Assembly (NCBI GenBank): GCA_011364965.1
Contig: RDOB01000003.1
Coordinates: forward strand, 496,939-560,938
Length of the DNA stretch: 64,000 nt
Reading direction: 5' to 3'
Origin: Candidatus Heimdallarchaeota archaeon
GTDB lineage: Archaea > Asgardarchaeota > Heimdallarchaeia > Hodarchaeales > Hodarchaeaceae
Below are positions 5,375-13,062 of this stretch, piece after piece. Below the pieces are notes generated by a model, which searched no databases, was not told the origin of the DNA, and worked only from the letters and a program-made list of their open reading frames with translations. Numbering within the stretch: the stretch's first letter is position 1; the number at the start of each line of letters is the position of its first letter. The translations under genes were made by a program, and so were the position numbers.

Positions 5375-6685
5375 ATGAATTCAACAAACCAAAGCGATGA
5401 TATAACAAATTACAAAATTCAACTAGAAACAATTTCATCTTTCAGCACACCAATAGAATGCTATGCATTAACGATCGGAAAAATCACCAAAGATATTCCT
5501 CAACTAGTATTGAGCTGTTATAAAGATAATTTGCTTGTAATGAACCCAGATGGGAATCTAGCGACGGAATTAGAATGGTCAACAAATTTTACATGTGTAA
5601 CAATTGGTAAACTAGCGAGTTCAAAGAATATCATCTCTGGAAGTCTCGATGGCACCGTTAGAGTTATGAATTCGCGGGGAGCTCTCATCTGGACGAAAGA
5701 TCTAGGTCTGAACGCTCCAATCAAAAATATAACAATAGGAAATATGAATGGGACTGAAAGTTCACAATTGCTAGTTGCAACTGGGGAAATCAACGTTGCT
5801 ATACTGCTAGATAAATCTGGAGAAATACTTTGGAAAAAACAAATGGAAAATCGTATTGTTGGGTCAGATATTGGAGTTATTCTCCCAAATGGAAACCCAA
5901 TGGCTTTAATTTTCGAAGCAAATGGCACTTTAAATTTAATTAATCTTGAGGGTGAAATTGTAGAGAGGTATAATTTCAATAATAAAGTTGCAAATGGTTT
6001 ACTAATGTCCTATGGGAATTTGAAATTTATAATTACTACCGAAAAGGAAAATATTTCATTCTGGAAAATAACAGATAAACTTAACCTACTCTTTTCTACT
6101 AAATGGAAGGGAAGGATTAGGAAAATCTATGCAAGCAAAATTTTTGATTCGGAAAATGATTGTTTAGCAATTATGACCAAGAATGGAGAAATTTCTATTT
6201 CAAGAGTCATAGTAACTCGTTATGACGAAGATAGGAAGGCTTTTAATGCAATTCAATACTTTGATCCTGGCGTAAGTCTAGAAAAATTACGATCAATCAT
6301 ATTAGACCTATTAAAGAGTTTTGGAGTGGCCGGTATCCCGATTAATAGAATTCATCAGTCCTATATTGAGAGAACGAAAAGTTTAGTAAGTTATCAGGAG
6401 TTCTACAAAGATCTACTTGCCATACAATCCAGTGGAAAACTTGGCGGACGTATTGACACTTCAGGAACCCCAGATACTGAATCTGATGATATATTGATAA
6501 TTAATACTGATAAGTTCTTTTGTATGGCCTGCAATGGTCAATATTCAGTGTTATCTCGTCACTCTCAATGCGACCAATGCTTAAGATTCCTCTGTGAAGA
6601 ATGCTACTCCGCTCGTGAGGCTGTTGGGTTTATCGAATGTCCTTATTGTCAAGCTTCAGCTTCTCACTTTCGTAAAATCACTTAA
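5375..6685 (+). CDS. Beta-propeller (WD40/FG-GAP-like) + winged helix + 8-Cys FYVE/RING-like zinc finger protein
   Basis: Propeller blades (IISGSLDGTVRVMNSRGALIW; LLDKSGEILW), a helical wHTH-like segment ending SGKLGGRID, and C-terminal CMAC-x12-CDQC-x4-CEEC-x11-CPYC. Confidence 0.7.
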   Translation: MNSTNQSDDITNYKIQLETISSFSTPIECYALTIGKITKDIPQLVLSCYKDNLLVMNPDGNLATELEWSTNFTCVTIGKLASSKNIISGSLDGTVRVMNSRGALIWTKDLGLNAPIKNITIGNMNGTESSQLLVATGEINVAILLDKSGEILWKKQMENRIVGSDIGVILPNGNPMALIFEANGTLNLINLEGEIVERYNFNNKVANGLLMSYGNLKFIITTEKENISFWKITDKLNLLFSTKWKGRIRKIYASKIFDSENDCLAIMTKNGEISISRVIVTRYDEDRKAFNAIQYFDPGVSLEKLRSIILDLLKSFGVAGIPINRIHQSYIERTKSLVSYQEFYKDLLAIQSSGKLGGRIDTSGTPDTESDDILIINTDKFFCMACNGQYSVLSRHSQCDQCLRFLCEECYSAREAVGFIECPYCQASASHFRKIT

Positions 6686-6734: not shown

Positions 6735-8222
6735 TTAATCTTCCCAGAATGAATCATCTAACTTTGAAGATTCTTTCTTGGCATCTTCCTGAAGAACATT
6801 CAACATACTCTTAAAGGCACGTGTTAAATCTCCCACTTCATCATCCTTATTTTCAAGTTCACTGTCGATTTGTAAATCTAAATCGGATAAGAGATCTTCC
6901 CGTATTGTATCGGTCGCCATTTTAGAAGCTATTGTAGTTAAGTGGTTGATAGGTTCAATAATCCTAGCAGACAACCATGTACCAATACTGAGTGAAAGAA
7001 AGGCAGCAAAACCTATAGTTATAATTACTTGAATTATAGTAGTCAAGGTTGCAGCCTGAATTCGGCTTTGAAGAGGAGAAACTGAAGCTAGAGCTTCTTC
7101 CTCTGGTACAATTATCAAACAAATGTAATCCCCTTTTCCAACTGAATTGAAGGCGAGATAAAATGTTTTCCCATTTCGAGTGTATTCTATGACTCCCGAG
7201 GAATCTCCAGAGGTTATTACGGTAATTTGATATTCTGTAATTGCTGGTTGACCGTTAATATTGACTTCAACCTCATCAAGAGTTGGTAAATCATCGTTAG
7301 GATTTACCGCGGTCCATTCTGGATGCGCGATAACCGTTCCAGATTGTTGAATTAACACAGCATATCCTGTATCTAGTATCTGAATGTTAATGATCTTTTC
7401 CTTGATACTTTCAATTGTGATATCTGCAAAGATACATCCCAACAAGACACTAGTAGATGGATGGTATATGGCCTTTCCTATAGTAATTAGTAATGCTCCA
7501 TCTATAGGATCGAAATAAGGTGCAGTAAAGACGATATCTCCATTTCCTTGTCTTACTTCTGAATACCAATCCTCTTGAGTAGCGTAAAAAGGGTCTGATA
7601 CTCGTTCCTGATCAGTTCCTCCTACCACACTCCCAGGATAATTTATAAAGAGATCAGATGTCTCAAAAGCGATGTATAGCCAACGGATTTCTGGAGCATT
7701 CAAATGGATGCTCTGAAAGATGTAATCCATATGAGCCATTCGTTGGATTGTATCATTTAAACTGGGATCAGCCTCAAGGAGAGTAAGATAGTTGGAAGAA
7801 TCAGATCCTGGAAAATAATAACTAGCGTAACTCCAAGAAAGATACACATCATAAAGTGAGTCCAAATAGGTGTCATTAGGATAGAGTTCTAATCCTCGAT
7901 CATATTCAAAGAAATAGTCGTAAAATACGGTTCTGTTTGTGTACCGAGAATCCAGGTGGAATAGATTCTCACATTCTTCAGCCATAGCGTTAACATAAGC
8001 CTCTGCACTACTTAATTTTTGGTTTACAATGAGAGAATTTTGGATTGCTGTTTGTTCAATATTCTCTTGAATTTGGGTACTCAATGCATCAGTGCTCATA
8101 GAGGTTGTTGTTTGGCCTACAAATCCTACAAATAAGGTACTGATTGAACCAATCAATATTAAAGAAACGAGACTGAAAATAACAAAACTAATGATTATAT
8201 TTTGTTTTATACTTCTTGCCAT
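6735..8222 (-). CDS. Membrane sensor TM-dCache_1-TM-HAMP with no output domain
   Basis: N-terminal TM, Cache motifs (EDWY, FTAPYFD, ADIT, GYAVLIQQSGTVIAHP), second TM, HAMP (IIEPINHLT...DEVGDLTRAFKSML), then about 20 residues and a stop. GGAGG RBS. Confidence 0.88.
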   Translation of the reverse strand: MARSIKQNIIISFVIFSLVSLILIGSISTLFVGFVGQTTTSMSTDALSTQIQENIEQTAIQNSLIVNQKLSSAEAYVNAMAEECENLFHLDSRYTNRTVFYDYFFEYDRGLELYPNDTYLDSLYDVYLSWSYASYYFPGSDSSNYLTLLEADPSLNDTIQRMAHMDYIFQSIHLNAPEIRWLYIAFETSDLFINYPGSVVGGTDQERVSDPFYATQEDWYSEVRQGNGDIVFTAPYFDPIDGALLITIGKAIYHPSTSVLLGCIFADITIESIKEKIINIQILDTGYAVLIQQSGTVIAHPEWTAVNPNDDLPTLDEVEVNINGQPAITEYQITVITSGDSSGVIEYTRNGKTFYLAFNSVGKGDYICLIIVPEEEALASVSPLQSRIQAATLTTIIQVIITIGFAAFLSLSIGTWLSARIIEPINHLTTIASKMATDTIREDLLSDLDLQIDSELENKDDEVGDLTRAFKSMLNVLQEDAKKESSKLDDSFWED

Positions 8223-8233
8223 CTTAATTCCTC

Positions 8234-10984
8234 CTATACATCCAATACATCAAACCCTTCGACATCGACTTCTCCCATAACTTCTCTTATTTCTTTGAAA
8301 GCATTATCTATTGCCGTACTAATAGAAATACTAGGATCAGAAACGTCTATATACCGGCCACGAGGGGTCATGTCGCAGAGCTCACGAAGTTTAGGTGCTA
8401 GTGCCTTCACTTCTGATCCCACACCTACAATGACTATATTAATAGTCAAAAGATTCTCGTCAATAAAATCAGGTATTGATTGTGCCATTATTCTAGTGAA
8501 GATATCAGGTATAAGACTAGACCGTCTTTTTCGCTCAAGTGAAAATCTATGACTTTTATTATCTTCGCCATCAGTTAATGCTATGAGCCACTTCTGTTCG
8601 TTGCCTTTTTCGTTATTTAAAAAGATTAACGCGTCTCCCAACGCATCATAAAATGCAGTCATACCATCAGGATATTTTAAACTTGAAATTGTTTTGAGAA
8701 TTGTGCTTTCTCGGTTACGTACATCCCCTAGTGGCAACAATGTTTTAGATTCTGAGGAAAAAATAACAAGGCCAACTTTATCTTGAGGATTAATTTGATC
8801 TTGGAACAATTTTCTGGTTCCTTTTACAACAGATCTAATCTTAGAACCATCCATCGAACCAGAATAATCTAAAACAAATAAAGCCATTTTTGGCATAATC
8901 AACTTTTTCCTAATATTCGCTGCAGAAACTTTTGCTCGGTGACTCTCTGTAGAACGATCTAATTCATCATACGTTGAGGCCATACGATCAAGGCATTTTA
9001 AAGCAATATTTACATCATCCACTGATTTAGCTAAGTCAAATGATTTTTGAAGAAGTTTTAATCCTTCTTCGTGTTTGGCCTGTACAATATGGAAAATTGC
9101 ATATTTCAAATAACTGTGAGCAAGTCCACGTGTTTCATTATTCTTTTCCGCAAGATGAATAGCCTCTTTATATTCCCTCTCTGCTTTATCAAAGTCCCCT
9201 AAACGTTCATGGATTATCCCAAGGTTACCAATTCGAGTGATTAAACCTTTAGTATTATTGATTTCCTCATCATAAGCTTTTGCTCTTTCCAAAAGCTGCA
9301 AACTCATTTGATAAGCTTCACGGTCGAGATACAATAGGCCAAGATTATTAAGGCGAGAAGCTAAGCCTTTCTTGTCTCCTTGTTTCTCACCAATATCAAT
9401 AGCTTCCTGATAATGTTCCCGAGCCCTGTTAAAATCATTCCAAGCTCGATAGATGTTGCCAAGGTTATTTTTCGCTATGGCTATTCCTCGTTCGTTTTTC
9501 GTGGTTGTAAAGAGGGTGAGGGCTTTTTGGTAGTTTTGGTATGCGCGTTTAAGATCACCTCTATAATAGTCTGTATTTCCAAAACGTAGAGATGTTAATA
9601 GATTATCAAATGCTGAATGCAATGTTGCTACTTCCTTCCCCATACTTCGTGGATTCCCACGTAAATCTCTTGATAAATCGCCTTCTGCTATAAAATTTAC
9701 CATGCTAGTAAGTTCTTTAACAGGTTGTACAATTTTATTTGACATATATGAACCTGCTACAACGACTCCTATGATTACTACCGATAAAGCTAAGATAAAT
9801 ACCATCGTTTGTTGAATAGCTAGATTATTAATCGTATTTCTAATAGCTATGGCTGATGCAATTATATCTTGTTCTGGTACGACAATACCCAAAGAATATC
9901 CAGTTGTATTAATTGGAATGTAGGAAATATACCATGTTTTGCCCATCTTAGCGTAAGGTTCCGTCACAATTTGACCAGAAATCATTTTTGGTAAAATATT
10001 GGATTCAAAGGAAGTTTTTTCGGTAACTGATTGGCCAAATTCCAACTCTCCGAGAGTTGGGACTTCTTCAGCTTCGGGATCGGCTTCAGGGTGGGAAATA
10101 ACATTTCCCTGTGAATCAATCATAAAAGCATACCCATTATCCAGAACTTCCACTCCTAAAATAGCATCATTAATAACATCAATTGTAATATCTGCACTCA
10201 CAACTCCAATCAAAGATCCGTTGGAAAAGTGGGAAGGCCGGCCTATTGACATCAATAATCCTGCAGGATCCCAATAAGGGGAAGTAAATGCTGTAGAATC
10301 ATCATCCAAGCTTGCTGCGTTCGTATACCATTCTTCTGCATGAGGATCGTAATCAAATCCCGTTGTTTCATAAAAATCTATACACCATGACATACTATCA
10401 TAAGGATAGTTCTTAAATAAGTGCCCATCTCCTTCAAAACCGGCATAAAGCCATACATAATTGCGATTTGCTTTGTGCAAAGATCTAAACATATTATCCA
10501 TATTTGATGCGCTGTTTAGTATTTCCTGCATTTGAGAACTAAGATCGAAGGGATCATTCCCTCTCATATGCTCCTTGGGGAGATAATAACAGCTAACATC
10601 AAATGAGATGTAAGATTCATAATCCGAATCATAAGCTAGTCCAGGAACGTTATATCCTGTTTCTGCAAATTCTAAAGCAGAATCCCAATAATAAGAATGA
10701 CCAGGAGTGATATTCACTTCCCCATTAAAGAGCGATTCAGTATATCGATCCAGCATTTTGATTTCTGATTCATACTGTTTGAATGTTTCATCAATGAAAA
10801 GAGCTTCATCTGATGCAATACGCTCAAGATTTGCAATGGAATCAGCTCTAAGGGCATCACTTGAATCTTGAGAATTTTCCTGTGATAATAATAAAATCTG
10901 AGTACCGCTAAGTAATGCCAGAAAAATTACGGGAACAACTAATAATGTCATAAATACAACTAAAATTTTTCTCTGAAGGTTCAA
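8234..10984 (-). CDS. Membrane receptor TM-dCache_1-TM-HAMP-TPR(x~6)-vWA
   Basis: Cache (EEWY, FTSPYWD, SADIT, GYAFMIDSQGNVISHP), HAMP (IVQPVKELT...IAEGDLS...EVATLHSAFDNL), TPRs (NNLGNIY, NNLGLLY, GNLGIIH), vWA MIDAS (DYSGS...T...LTDGED). Confidence 0.9.
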   Translation of the reverse strand: MNLQRKILVVFMTLLVVPVIFLALLSGTQILLLSQENSQDSSDALRADSIANLERIASDEALFIDETFKQYESEIKMLDRYTESLFNGEVNITPGHSYYWDSALEFAETGYNVPGLAYDSDYESYISFDVSCYYLPKEHMRGNDPFDLSSQMQEILNSASNMDNMFRSLHKANRNYVWLYAGFEGDGHLFKNYPYDSMSWCIDFYETTGFDYDPHAEEWYTNAASLDDDSTAFTSPYWDPAGLLMSIGRPSHFSNGSLIGVVSADITIDVINDAILGVEVLDNGYAFMIDSQGNVISHPEADPEAEEVPTLGELEFGQSVTEKTSFESNILPKMISGQIVTEPYAKMGKTWYISYIPINTTGYSLGIVVPEQDIIASAIAIRNTINNLAIQQTMVFILALSVVIIGVVVAGSYMSNKIVQPVKELTSMVNFIAEGDLSRDLRGNPRSMGKEVATLHSAFDNLLTSLRFGNTDYYRGDLKRAYQNYQKALTLFTTTKNERGIAIAKNNLGNIYRAWNDFNRAREHYQEAIDIGEKQGDKKGLASRLNNLGLLYLDREAYQMSLQLLERAKAYDEEINNTKGLITRIGNLGIIHERLGDFDKAEREYKEAIHLAEKNNETRGLAHSYLKYAIFHIVQAKHEEGLKLLQKSFDLAKSVDDVNIALKCLDRMASTYDELDRSTESHRAKVSAANIRKKLIMPKMALFVLDYSGSMDGSKIRSVVKGTRKLFQDQINPQDKVGLVIFSSESKTLLPLGDVRNRESTILKTISSLKYPDGMTAFYDALGDALIFLNNEKGNEQKWLIALTDGEDNKSHRFSLERKRRSSLIPDIFTRIMAQSIPDFIDENLLTINIVIVGVGSEVKALAPKLRELCDMTPRGRYIDVSDPSISISTAIDNAFKEIREVMGEVDVEGFDVLDV

Positions 10985-11154
10985 ATTTGTATCAACCTCT
11001 CGTAGACCAAAAACTATTGGTGAAATTCAGCTCAAACCAGAAGTAGTTTATCTTTTAAATGCTCCTAATGACGAACCTGTAGAGAACTTCTACAATGTTA
11101 CAGCTTATATATTATGCAAATATAAGGTAAGAAAAAGAAGAGGCAATCCCTTCA

Positions 11155-13062
11155 ATGAAATCTACCGAATGGACTATTAATGACTCTCAGAACGTCTATG
11201 GAATAGGAAAAACTTTTCGGGAGTTTAATTTCCTAGAAATTAATTCCCAGGGAGAATTATGCTTGAGAATTAAAGACGAAATAATTTCATTCAAAGAAAT
11301 TCTATCCCGTCTTCATAAACAAATCACATGGACGGATATTGATCAATGTCCTTCATTAACCCTACGGATACCACAGCTGGTTGAATATCAAATTGCCAAA
11401 CTAAACCAATCTTTTTCAAAAGCACTCAATGAGTATAATTATAAAGGAGAGTTCACTGCTGTTTATCCTATTAAAGTAAATCAGCAGAAACATGCCATTA
11501 ATTCGGTATTAAAAAGCAAATTTATAAAATATGGACTTGAAGTGGGAACAAAAGCTGAATTTCTTATAACCCTAAGAGCCCTTAAAGACCATACTGATAG
11601 ATATTTAGTTTGCAATGGGGTAAAGGATTTAGAATATTTAGGATTAGCTATTAAAAAGCTTCAGGAAGGGTGGAATGTCCTCATATCGGTTGAAACCTTT
11701 AGAGAATTGAAAACTCTTCTCAATTTAACTACAGATCCATCAATCTTGAAATTGAGCTTGCGATTAAAACCCTATTTTTCTGTGAGTGGACACTGGGCGC
11801 ACTCATCAGGAAGGGACTCGAAATTTGGATTGTCTATCGGTGAATTAACAGAAGTTTTAACTTACCTAGAGGAAACTAATAATAAAAATATCGTTGTGGC
11901 TCTTCATGCTCATATTGGGTCTCAGATTACATCTCTTGAAGACTTCAAATTTTTAGCCCAATATCTCACTATATTGTATAAGGAATTTAGAAATAAAGGG
12001 TTACATAATCTTCACATATTAGACTTTGGTGGAGGGCTTTCAATAGATTATGAAGGAAGAATTACCGACAAAAATCCAGACACCTTTGATACTTATGCGA
12101 AGCATATAGTTGAAGGGATTGTAACAACAATAGATGATTTTGATCACCCTGATATCATGATTGAAACAGGTAGGGCTATTACTGCTCTTTCATCCATTGT
12201 ACTTGCTCAAATTCTTGAAATAAAAGATATTTTCCCAGAAGGAAAGATTAAGGATGAGGAAAAGGCTTTTGTTGAAGAATGGAAAAAGAGAATTCAAAAA
12301 ATTACTACAGTAGATGAATTCCGAACCACGTGGTTTGAGTTATTAGGTTATGATGCTAAAAAGAATTCATCTTTAAGAACTACTTCCGAGTTATTTCATC
12401 ATGAAATCCTAGTGAGCAAAATTCGTAGGCTATTTCGAAAAGAATTGGGAAAGGAGTTCTATCTGAAGACCCTACAACAATTCATAAGCGACCCAAGCCT
12501 TAATCTGCTTTTTACTCAAGCAGAGAAATATGCTCTTTGTAATTTCTCTGTCTTTAATAGCGCTTGTGATCATATTCTAGTTAAGCAATATTTTCCTATT
12601 TTTCCAATAGAATTTCTTGATAAACAACCAGAAACTATAGTTAGAATTGTAGATATTACTTGTGACTCTGATGGCGAGATATCCCAATTTATCACCAAAA
12701 GAACAGATACTCACCCTAAATTTACCCTTGATCATTACCCGCTCCAAATTCCAGTCCCTGTAACACTGAAAGGAATCCCCGTTCCCAATTGTGATGGTTT
12801 GAATGAATCTTATTTTGCAATTGGACTTTTAGGAGCTTATCAGGATATTATAGAATTCGATCATAATCTTCTAGGTGATCTTCCAGACGCATTAATTCAG
12901 TTAGATGGAGATGATTGGAAAATTGAATGGTCTTCAGACCCTGAAAGTCCACAAAAATTAATTACAAAAATGGGATACAAAGGAGATGAAATTTTCCCAA
13001 ATATGGGAAAAATGTCTTATGCAAAGGACTCGTGGAACAGAAAGGAGAATAATACTGATTAA
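11155..13062 (+). CDS. speA: Biosynthetic arginine decarboxylase (PLP fold III)
   Basis: VYPIKVNQ (PLP lysine), GLEVGTKAE, CNGVKD, SKFGL, HAHIGSQI, DFGGGL, ETGRA, NFSVFNS, DITCDSDG, GAYQ and HNL motifs. Confidence 0.93.
   Translation: MKSTEWTINDSQNVYGIGKTFREFNFLEINSQGELCLRIKDEIISFKEILSRLHKQITWTDIDQCPSLTLRIPQLVEYQIAKLNQSFSKALNEYNYKGEFTAVYPIKVNQQKHAINSVLKSKFIKYGLEVGTKAEFLITLRALKDHTDRYLVCNGVKDLEYLGLAIKKLQEGWNVLISVETFRELKTLLNLTTDPSILKLSLRLKPYFSVSGHWAHSSGRDSKFGLSIGELTEVLTYLEETNNKNIVVALHAHIGSQITSLEDFKFLAQYLTILYKEFRNKGLHNLHILDFGGGLSIDYEGRITDKNPDTFDTYAKHIVEGIVTTIDDFDHPDIMIETGRAITALSSIVLAQILEIKDIFPEGKIKDEEKAFVEEWKKRIQKITTVDEFRTTWFELLGYDAKKNSSLRTTSELFHHEILVSKIRRLFRKELGKEFYLKTLQQFISDPSLNLLFTQAEKYALCNFSVFNSACDHILVKQYFPIFPIEFLDKQPETIVRIVDITCDSDGEISQFITKRTDTHPKFTLDHYPLQIPVPVTLKGIPVPNCDGLNESYFAIGLLGAYQDIIEFDHNLLGDLPDALIQLDGDDWKIEWSSDPESPQKLITKMGYKGDEIFPNMGKMSYAKDSWNRKENNTD

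What the first reader, a model, noticed from the sequence alone, without database searches (positions are those of the whole stretch)
7563..13062. Both dCache pockets have an Arg-to-Glu charge swap and sit divergent from arginine decarboxylase: predicted agmatine/polyamine sensing
Known: the amino-acid-binding dCache_1 motif is YxxxxRxWY...YxD...D, where Arg binds the carboxylate and the later Tyr/Asp residues bind the amine. Seen: YDPHAEEWY...PYWD...SADIT (near 10325-10351) and FYATQEDWY...PYFD...FADIT (near 7563-7589). The amine-binding residues are kept and Arg is Glu in both proteins. speA begins 170 bp away on the opposite strand. Inference: the ligand carries a second cation in place of the carboxylate, i.e. 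a decarboxylated amino acid such as agmatine or putrescine. That could make a synthase-plus-receptor (autoinducer-like) module.
Basis: partly seen in the sequence, partly recalled or inferred. Interest (0 to 1): 0.74.

Follow-up and report, generated by a model that had tools for sequence, protein, structure and literature searches.

The report
Acid-pocket sensor pair beside arginine decarboxylase
Two neighbouring membrane sensors of an Asgard archaeon keep the amine-gripping half of the universal amino-acid pocket but carry glutamate where the carboxylate-gripping arginine should be; across Asgard genomes this pocket type stays next to the arginine decarboxylase gene, so they are good but untested candidates for archaeal agmatine or polyamine receptors.

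Summary
Window 6735-8222(-) and 8234-10984(-) encode paralogous dCache_1-TM-HAMP receptors. The long one adds TPR and VWA domains. In both, Glu217 aligns with the carboxylate-binding Arg of PctB/Mlp24, and the next residue is also acidic. The amine-binding Tyr/Asp/Asp residues are kept. speA starts 170 bp away on the other strand.

The refutation test failed: speA adjacency is not unique to this genome. In a sample of 201 Asgard genomes the pair lies directly beside speA in 37. Most other cases are contig breaks. Three gene orders occur. Among distinct sequences, 0 of 62 speA-adjacent receptors have Arg at that position and 51 have Glu or Asp. In loci without speA, 14 of 21 have Arg. An Arg/Arg pair without speA branches between speA-linked clades.

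My best reading (about 0.55) is a pocket derived from the amino-acid sensor that now binds agmatine or a related di/polyamine, coupled to SpeA as supply or feedback control. No ligand was tested and the output route is unknown. Nothing specifically supports the autoinducer idea. Exceptions exist: acidic short receptors without speA.

This scan has already reported the same module in Thorarchaeota genomes (AI notes). I found no paper describing it.

The parts
8234..10984 (-). Long receptor (916 aa): TM1, extracellular dCache_1, TM2, HAMP-like linker, TPR repeats, VWA with an intact DxSxS MIDAS (DYSGS, 8852-8869)
   Evidence: Translation; Pfam dCache_1, TPR_12 and VWA; orthologues 60-65% identical in three related genomes
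10325..10351 (-). Long receptor pocket segment Y212-D-P-H-A-E217-E218-W219-Y220; E217 sits at the carboxylate-binding Arg position
   Evidence: Alignment to PctB YDPRRRPWY; invariant in A2
10184..10279 (-). Long receptor amine-contact residues Y237, D239 (PYWD) and D265 (SADIT)
   Evidence: D239 and D265 invariant in all speA-linked sequences
6735..8222 (-). Short receptor (495 aa): TM1, dCache_1, TM2, HAMP, short acidic tail, no output domain; paralogue of the long one (27-29% identity)
   Evidence: 11-bp gap to the long gene; the pair is conserved
7563..7589 (-). Short receptor pocket segment F212-Y-A-T-Q-E217-D218-W219-Y220
   Evidence: Alignment to Mlp24/Mlp37 RPWY
7416..7520 (-). Short receptor amine-contact residues Y236, D238 (PYFD) and D267 (FADIT)
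10985..11154 (.). 170-bp divergent intergenic region between the long receptor and speA; A/T-rich with TATA-like TTTAAAAG; only weakly conserved among relatives
11155..13062 (+). speA, biosynthetic PLP-dependent arginine decarboxylase (635 aa)
   Evidence: NF003763 385 bits (cut-off 369), Pfam Orn_Arg_deC_N; PIKVN Lys, GGGL and CDSDG present
5375..6685 (+). Convergent beta-propeller protein with a C-terminal RING-like zinc finger; recurrent neighbour of these receptor pairs and a possible output partner
   Evidence: Pfam Beta-prop_ACSF4; conserved next to the pair; its zinc finger is homologous to a C-terminal extension fused to the short receptor in L004 (phmmer 6e-13)

Best explanation
The two genes encode a pair of membrane receptors that have co-evolved and are probably hetero-oligomeric. 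[quoted passage not shown] The half of the pocket that holds the ligand's amino group (Tyr237, Asp239, Asp265) is kept. The half that holds the carboxylate is reversed in charge: Arg becomes Glu217, and the next residue is Asp or Glu. Such a pocket should reject alpha-amino acids and favour a primary amine that carries a second cationic group. Given the conserved linkage to arginine decarboxylase, agmatine is the first candidate, followed by putrescine, cadaverine and spermidine. The receptors would report external agmatine/polyamine to the cell and so tune SpeA-dependent synthesis, by analogy with cadaverine feedback on CadC. The cytoplasmic route is unknown. It runs through protein-docking domains (HAMP, TPR, VWA) and possibly a RING-like zinc-finger partner, not through a kinase or a DNA-binding domain. 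Shown: pocket residues, their conservation, fold, gene linkage, and co-variation of pocket type with speA. Inferred: ligand identity, direction of control, heteromer formation, output.
For: (1) Glu217 aligns with the carboxylate-binding Arg of PctB and Mlp24/37, and Tyr/Asp/Asp are kept. The fold is closest to amino-acid dCache domains. (2) In the library of 1.8 billion representatives, the nearest relatives carry E/D at this position, while 85 more distant ones carry the canonical YRxWY...YxD...D. The clade is therefore an offshoot of amino-acid sensors. Position W-1 also switches, from G/P to D/E. (3) speA lies directly beside the pair in 37 of 201 sampled Asgard genomes. Most other cases are contig breaks. 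Three gene orders occur: divergent (this window, G042), long-short-speA (f4, f5, f11, L043, L052), and speA-long-short (L051). (4) Among distinct sequences, Arg occurs in 0 of 62 speA-adjacent receptors (E/D in 51) against 14 of 21 in loci without speA. (5) In the IQ-TREE tree, the Arg/Arg pair L042, which has no speA, is sister to one speA-linked clade (UFBoot 98 and 100). A second speA-linked clade groups elsewhere (UFBoot 92 for the short paralogue, only 54 for the long one). Pocket state and linkage therefore changed together more than once. (6) Precedents: McpU and TlpQ bind agmatine and polyamines through the same Tyr/Asp/Asp triad plus an extra Glu in a strongly negative pocket (PMC6234866). 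Cadaverine binds the periplasmic domain of CadC to feed back on the decarboxylase operon (PMC11484849).
Against: The long receptor is not always acidic at the Arg position: Q, Y, F, W or S in 9 of 30. Two short receptors have Q there. Acidic short receptors exist without speA, in L004, L037-41 and in f14 genomes where no speA was found. The residue alone therefore does not predict the linkage. About ten sampled genomes have speA without the pair. dCache_1AM amine sensors tested by others did not bind putrescine or agmatine (PMC10589655), so loss of the Arg does not by itself predict polyamine binding. Kin are not independent: most linked loci fall in a few clades, and deep nodes of the larger tree are weakly supported.
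Confidence: 0.55

Rival explanations
1. Producer-plus-receptor signalling. SpeA-made agmatine, or a polyamine derived from it, is released and sensed by the same population as an autoinducer-like cue.
For: The synthase gene and the receptor genes are kept adjacent and are often co-transcribed, as in many autoinducer systems. The module is patchy within the window's own genus (5 of 22 genomes), which suggests an accessory trait.
Against: No exporter or antiporter gene is seen in the locus. In families f1 and f4 no pyruvoyl ADC was found, so SpeA may be the ordinary biosynthetic ADC rather than a dedicated signal synthase. Agmatine is a primary metabolite made by many community members, which makes it a poor private signal. 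Acidic short receptors also occur in genomes without speA.
Confidence: 0.12
2. Substrate sensing. The pair detects external arginine, or another basic amino acid, and switches on its decarboxylation. The acidic residues would grip the guanidinium or side-chain amine.
For: Linkage to speA fits substrate as well as product. PctB and Mlp24 bind arginine in homologous pockets.
Against: Known arginine-binding dCache domains keep the motif Arg for the alpha-carboxylate (PMC8915833). Here it is lost in all 62 linked sequences and replaced by two acidic residues that would repel a carboxylate.
Confidence: 0.12
3. Inorganic cation or pH sensing. The cluster of carboxylates (E217, D/E218, D239, D265) binds a metal ion or titrates with pH, and proton-consuming arginine decarboxylation is the response.
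For: There are four or five acidic side chains in one pocket. Decarboxylase systems such as Cad are pH-controlled (PMC11484849).
Against: SpeA belongs to the biosynthetic fold-III family, not the acid-inducible AdiA/CadA type. No antiporter is linked. Strict retention of the Tyr/Asp/Asp amine triad is what an organic-amine ligand would require.
Confidence: 0.08
4. Linkage without ligand logic. speA and the pair travel together as a mobile or co-inherited block, and the pocket change reflects a different, unrelated ligand or a ligand-free co-receptor.
For: Most linked loci belong to a few clades. Exceptions exist in both directions.
Against: Adjacency survives three different gene orders and SpeA divergence down to about 40% identity. 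Pocket residues are under strong conservation. An Arg/Arg pair nested between linked clades lacks speA.
Confidence: 0.1

Closest known systems
dCache_1AA universal amino-acid sensors (PctA/PctB/PctC, Mlp24, Mlp37, Tlp3, alpha2delta; Gumerov et al. 2022, PMC8915833)
   Same: Same fold and the closest solved relatives by sequence and structure. Same W-Y, Tyr and Asp positions. More distant relatives of the family still carry the full motif.
   Different: The defining Arg (R126) is Glu, and the next residue is acidic instead of Gly/Pro. The outputs are TPR-VWA or nothing, rather than an MCP, kinase or cyclase domain.
McpU (P. putida) and TlpQ (P. aeruginosa) polyamine/agmatine/histamine chemoreceptors (PMC6234866)
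   Same: dCache_1 domains with a strongly negative pocket. The primary amine is held by a Tyr/Asp/Asp triad, and an extra Glu contacts the second nitrogen. Agmatine binds at 0.15-0.5 uM.
   Different: There is no detectable sequence relation: the A3 profile does not hit 6FU4 or 6F9G even at E<=10. Whether TlpQ Glu170 occupies the Arg position was not established here. They are chemoreceptors and are not linked to speA.
dCache_1AM amine sensors (PctD, PacA, McpX, M. mazei 3LIB; Cerna-Vargas et al. 2023, PMC10589655)
   Same: They also evolved from amino-acid sensors by losing the Arg. They keep the aromatic pair and the final Asp. The M. mazei domains are among the best PDB sequence hits.
   Different: The AM motif relies on cation-pi aromatics and a helical insertion (R103/D133). 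In the alignment to 3LIB, the Asp after Tyr (D239 here) is not conserved. The AM domains tested bound small or quaternary amines, not putrescine or agmatine. Among archaea the family was reported only in Halobacteriota.
CadC-cadaverine feedback in the E. coli Cad system (PMC11484849)
   Same: An extracytoplasmic sensor domain binds the amine product of an amino-acid decarboxylase encoded next to it and adjusts that pathway.
   Different: The sensor fold is unrelated. CadC is a ToxR-like DNA-binding one-component protein. It is a biodegradative, acid-stress system with an antiporter.

Membership tests
dCache_1 (PF02743) | Score above the Pfam gathering cut-off; double PAS-like extracellular module between two TM helices | tested here: met
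   72.1 and 62.1 bits against a cut-off of 45. The AF2 model matches dCache structures. Hydrophobic segments flank the domain.
dCache_1AA (amino-acid sensor) | Arg at the R126 position contacting the ligand carboxylate | tested here: not met
   Glu217 in both proteins. Arg occurs in 0 of 62 speA-adjacent relatives.
dCache_1AA (amino-acid sensor) | Y121 and W128 (carboxylate side); Y144 and D173 (amine side) | tested here: met
   The long protein has Y212, W219, Y237 and D265. The short protein has W219, Y236 and D267, but Phe at the Y121 position.
dCache_1AM (amine sensor) | AM_motif including the helical insertion with the R103-D133 pair and the cation-pi aromatic W155 | tested here: inconclusive
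   The aromatic pair and the final Asp are shared. The insertion residues could not be mapped because the upstream region aligns poorly to 3LIB. The model has low confidence at residues 61-76 and 163-175.
McpU/TlpQ-type polyamine receptors | Homology to the McpU/TlpQ clade (cluster L4 of PMC6974571) | tested here: not met
   6FU4 and 6F9G are absent from profile and single-sequence PDB searches at E<=1-10.
McpU/TlpQ-type polyamine receptors | Binding of agmatine, putrescine or spermidine | not testable with these tools
   Needs DSF/ITC. No docking tool or agmatine ligand is offered.
SpeA, biosynthetic arginine decarboxylase | Score above the NCBIfam equivalog cut-off; PLP-Lys and substrate-loop motifs | tested here: met
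   NF003763 scores 385.5 against 369. TIGR01273 scores 354, below its cut-off of 624. PIKVN, GGGL and CDSDG are present.
Autoinducer synthase-receptor module | Synthase adjacent to a receptor that binds its exported product; density-dependent response | tested here: inconclusive
   Adjacency is met. No exporter is seen in the locus. Binding and density dependence are not testable here.

The most novel reading that the evidence does not exclude
Asgard archaea use agmatine or a polyamine as an extracellular signal. It is read by a kinase-free receptor pair whose TPR-VWA and RING-like zinc-finger partners act directly on proteins, for example on SpeA stability or activity. That would be polyamine feedback through protein-docking or ubiquitin-like machinery rather than transcription, reminiscent of eukaryotic polyamine homeostasis.
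Probability: 0.1. Interest if true: 0.85.

Novelty: new variant of a known kind. Interest (0 to 1): 0.6.

Why it matters
Ligands are unknown for almost all archaeal receptors and for essentially all Asgard ones. Here a simple, conserved residue switch plus gene linkage gives a specific, cheap-to-test ligand prediction (agmatine or polyamines) for a receptor family present in roughly a quarter of sampled Asgard genomes. [quoted passage not shown] It would give a sequence rule for finding polyamine sensors. It would also open a kinase-free signalling route (HAMP-TPR-VWA with a RING-like partner) in the closest archaeal relatives of eukaryotes. Agmatine is needed by archaea for tRNA-Ile agmatidine and for polyamines (my own knowledge, not checked here), so control of its supply is physiologically central.

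Tried and rejected
(1) Complex prediction of SpeA with the VWA domain of the long receptor, each chain given as an alignment, returned no verdict (score 0.00). It says nothing either way.

(2) I looked for a conserved operator in the divergent intergenic region. The alignment of four relatives shows only A/T-rich, TATA-like stretches and no clear shared palindrome.

(3) I tried to place TlpQ Glu170 relative to the Arg position. TlpQ and McpU are too distant for HMMER, and the tools give no residue-level structural alignment, so this stays open.

(4) I considered that the short protein's FWED tail docks in the long protein's TPR domain. The tail is conserved only in the window's own family, so it is not a general mechanism, and I did not pursue it.

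(5) The SpeA tree was meant to decide between one capture and several. Its deep nodes are unresolved.

(6) The second decarboxylase-like gene after speA in family f4 is LysA-like and below all cut-offs. It is not evidence for a polyamine pathway.

(7) I considered membership in dCache_1AM. It is not supported, but not cleanly excluded either.

(8) The model's coordinates are not exposed, so pocket distances could not be measured.
Full report
WHAT IS THERE. The window comes from an Asgard archaeon. The closest public loci are titled Promethearchaeota, Candidatus Hodarchaeum mangrovi and Heimdallarchaeota.

- ORF 8234-10984(-) encodes a 916-aa protein: an N-terminal TM helix, an extracellular dCache_1 domain, a second TM helix, a HAMP-like linker, TPR repeats and a VWA domain with an intact DxSxS MIDAS.
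- ORF 6735-8222(-) starts 11 bp downstream. It encodes a 495-aa paralogue (27-29% identical) that stops shortly after HAMP.
- ORF 11155-13062(+) lies 170 bp away on the other strand and is speA. NF003763 scores 385 bits against a cut-off of 369, and the PLP-Lys motif PIKVN, GGGL and CDSDG are present.
- The other neighbours are a convergent beta-propeller protein, methyltransferases and an ICMT-like protein. None is an obvious polyamine enzyme or transporter.

THE OBSERVATION. HMMER alignments to solved, ligand-bound amino-acid sensors give the register.
- The long protein's 'YDPHAEEWY ... SPYWDP ... SADIT' pairs with PctB 'YDPRRRPWY ... EPYMEP ... GGDLS'.
- The short protein's 'EDWY' pairs with Mlp24/Mlp37 'RPWY'.

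Glu217 therefore sits at the Arg that contacts the ligand carboxylate (R126 of PctA). Tyr, Asp and Asp at the amine-contact positions are kept. The published motif is Y121/R126/W128 for the carboxylate and Y144/D173 for the amine (PMC8915833). The residue after Glu217 is also acidic: Glu in the long protein, Asp in the short one. An AF2 model of the long ectodomain (mean pLDDT 73) is most similar to amino-acid dCache domains, namely Mlp24, Mlp37, PctA and alpha2delta. In the short protein the first aromatic of the motif is Phe rather than Tyr.

WHERE THE POCKET COMES FROM. I searched a profile of eight ectodomains against 1.8 billion representative proteins. It found 1,889 relatives at E<=1e-10. 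Among the best 150, the closest carry E or D at the Arg position. In the same set, 85 more distant domains carry the full canonical YRxWY...YxD...D. Compared with those, the linked clade differs mainly at three places:
- Arg becomes E/D.
- The following Gly/Pro becomes D/E.
- The upstream Arg of the DPR box is lost.

This clade is therefore an offshoot of amino-acid sensors with a charge-reversed carboxylate site. It is not related in sequence to the known polyamine receptors McpU and TlpQ, which the profile does not find even at E<=10.

THE LINKAGE TEST. It is not unique.

Among 61 relatives of the same class, the pair (E<1e-60) was found in 19 genomes. It lies next to speA in 17 of them. The other two are cut by contig ends.

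In an even sample of 201 genomes of the phylum, the pair was found in 51 and speA in 56. They are immediately adjacent in 37. In one genome speA is 6 kb away. The rest are contig breaks or genomes where speA was not found.

Three gene orders occur:
- divergent speA<->long->short, in this window, its family and G042;
- long->short->speA with gaps of 0-40 bp or overlapping stop/start, in families f4, f5 and f11 and in metagenome contigs L043 and L052;
- speA->long->short, in L051.

SpeA identity across these loci falls to about 40%, so the association is old and has survived rearrangement.

CO-VARIATION WITH THE POCKET. The long+short receptor pair is a wider Asgard family. Pairs with Arg in both pockets have no speA beside them: L042, L048/49, the P0025 contigs, L071/72 and the related L025-28.

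Counting distinct sequences:

| Group | n | Residue at the Arg position |
|---|---|---|
| speA-adjacent, long | 30 | E20, D1, Q4, Y2, W1, F1, S1; no Arg |
| speA-adjacent, short | 32 | E20, D10, Q2; no Arg |
| no speA in locus, long | 9 | Arg in 7 |
| no speA in locus, short | 12 | Arg in 7 |

In an IQ-TREE analysis (LG+G4, 1000 UFBoot, 55 sequences), the long and short trees mirror each other, so the two paralogues co-evolve as a pair. The Arg/Arg pair L042 is sister to the large speA-linked clade that contains this window (support 98 and 100). A second speA-linked clade (family f5, L043, L047) groups with non-linked pairs instead (92 for the short tree, but only 54 for the long tree). Whichever state is ancestral, pocket type and speA linkage changed together more than once.

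There are limits. Relatives are not independent, and deep nodes in the larger FastTree are weak. There are also exceptions. Pairs whose short member is acidic but which lack speA occur in L004, L037-41, and L069/L070 of a family where speA was not found at all. About ten sampled genomes have speA without the pair.

HOW IT PROBABLY WORKS. The kept Tyr/Asp/Asp triad binds a primary amine in every characterised relative. The same triad holds histamine and putrescine in TlpQ and McpU, where an additional Glu contacts the second nitrogen and the pocket is strongly negative. McpU and TlpQ bind agmatine at 0.48 and 0.15 uM (PMC6234866).

Replacing the carboxylate-binding Arg by two acidic residues should exclude alpha-amino acids and favour a second cationic group. 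With speA as the constant neighbour, agmatine or a downstream di/polyamine is the most economical ligand. I put this at about 0.55.

The likely logic is supply or feedback control of SpeA-dependent synthesis. An analogue is cadaverine binding to the periplasmic domain of CadC (PMC11484849). Pyruvoyl-type ADC (PF01862) was not found in this window's family or in f4, where speA is nearly universal. It is found in families that mostly lack speA. SpeA may therefore be the main ADC in these lineages. The genome also has arginase-family and AdoMet_dc-family genes. No spermidine synthase was found, at 87% completeness.

The autoinducer reading is possible, but nothing specific supports it.

OUTPUT. 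Neither receptor has a kinase, cyclase, MCP or DNA-binding domain. The recurrent partners are a beta-propeller protein and a RING-like zinc finger.
- In this window the finger is the C-terminus of the propeller protein (5375-6685).
- In L004 and L050 a homologous finger is fused to the short receptor itself (phmmer 6e-13 and 1e-7).
- Elsewhere a small RING-like ORF flanks the pair or speA: L020, L021, L037-41, L073 and L012.

This fusion pattern suggests that the finger protein is part of the output, but I did not test it. A co-fold of SpeA with the VWA domain gave no verdict.

COMPARISON AND NOVELTY. That dCache_1 amino-acid sensors can evolve into amine sensors is known (dCache_1AM, PMC10589655; McpU/TlpQ). 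What is new here is a separate, Asgard-wide lineage with an Arg-to-Glu/Asp reversal, its conserved coupling to speA, and its kinase-free architecture. I found no paper on it. Earlier AI notes of this scan describe the same module in Thorarchaeota genomes and reached a similar reading. They are leads, not evidence, although my phylum-wide search agrees with them. I class the finding as a new variant of a known kind, with interest 0.6. It is a sharp and cheaply testable ligand prediction for an unstudied receptor family, but it is still only a prediction.

Noticed in passing
window 5375-6685 (+); L004:3063-4697; L050:286-1755; L037:4352-4657; L039:7540-7824: The beta-propeller neighbour ends in a RING-like zinc finger. 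The finger is homologous to a C-terminal extension fused to the short receptor in a second pair of a related genome. Small RING-like ORFs flank other pairs. This fusion pattern hints that a RING-like protein is the missing output.
   Followed up: partly
window 8234-10984; PDB 9vlg, 8if3, 8s7c: The ectodomain profile's best PDB hits include human alpha2delta-1 and CACHD1 (E about 2e-16), in the same range as Mlp24/37. The long receptor has the same domain set (dCache_1 + VWA), but here the VWA is cytoplasmic and C-terminal rather than extracellular and inserted.
   Followed up: no
L009:9585-11027, L014:7161-8606 and equivalents in family f4: A second, about 480-aa fold-III PLP decarboxylase-like gene follows speA in family f4 loci. 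It is LysA-like and below all curated cut-offs.
   Followed up: partly
L030 (G028:C1:1149642-1154401): Two tandem speA copies, one in an 886-aa open frame, in a genome where the receptor pair was not found.
   Followed up: no
L002:5927-7660 / G006:C139:9224-11098: In the Ca. Hodarchaeum mangrovi locus the speA match contains three in-frame stops near its start, and the ORF is only 577 aa. It may be a truncated or decaying copy, or a sequencing error.
   Followed up: no
window 6735-6800 and 8234-8330; The long receptors of all classes end in a conserved acidic tail (..V[DE]VEGF..D.). The short receptors of this family end in DDSFW[DE]x. Both could be docking peptides.
   Followed up: no
G000:C11:205302-205982 (L029:2484-4361): A third dCache_1 protein of this genome (625 aa) keeps the canonical FRPWY...YxD...D amino-acid motif and is not near speA.
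   Followed up: partly
L066-L068 (family f17): In this family the short receptor is longer (583-665 aa) and has Gln at the Arg position, and the long one has Trp or Phe. In G161 speA is 6 kb upstream rather than adjacent.
   Followed up: no
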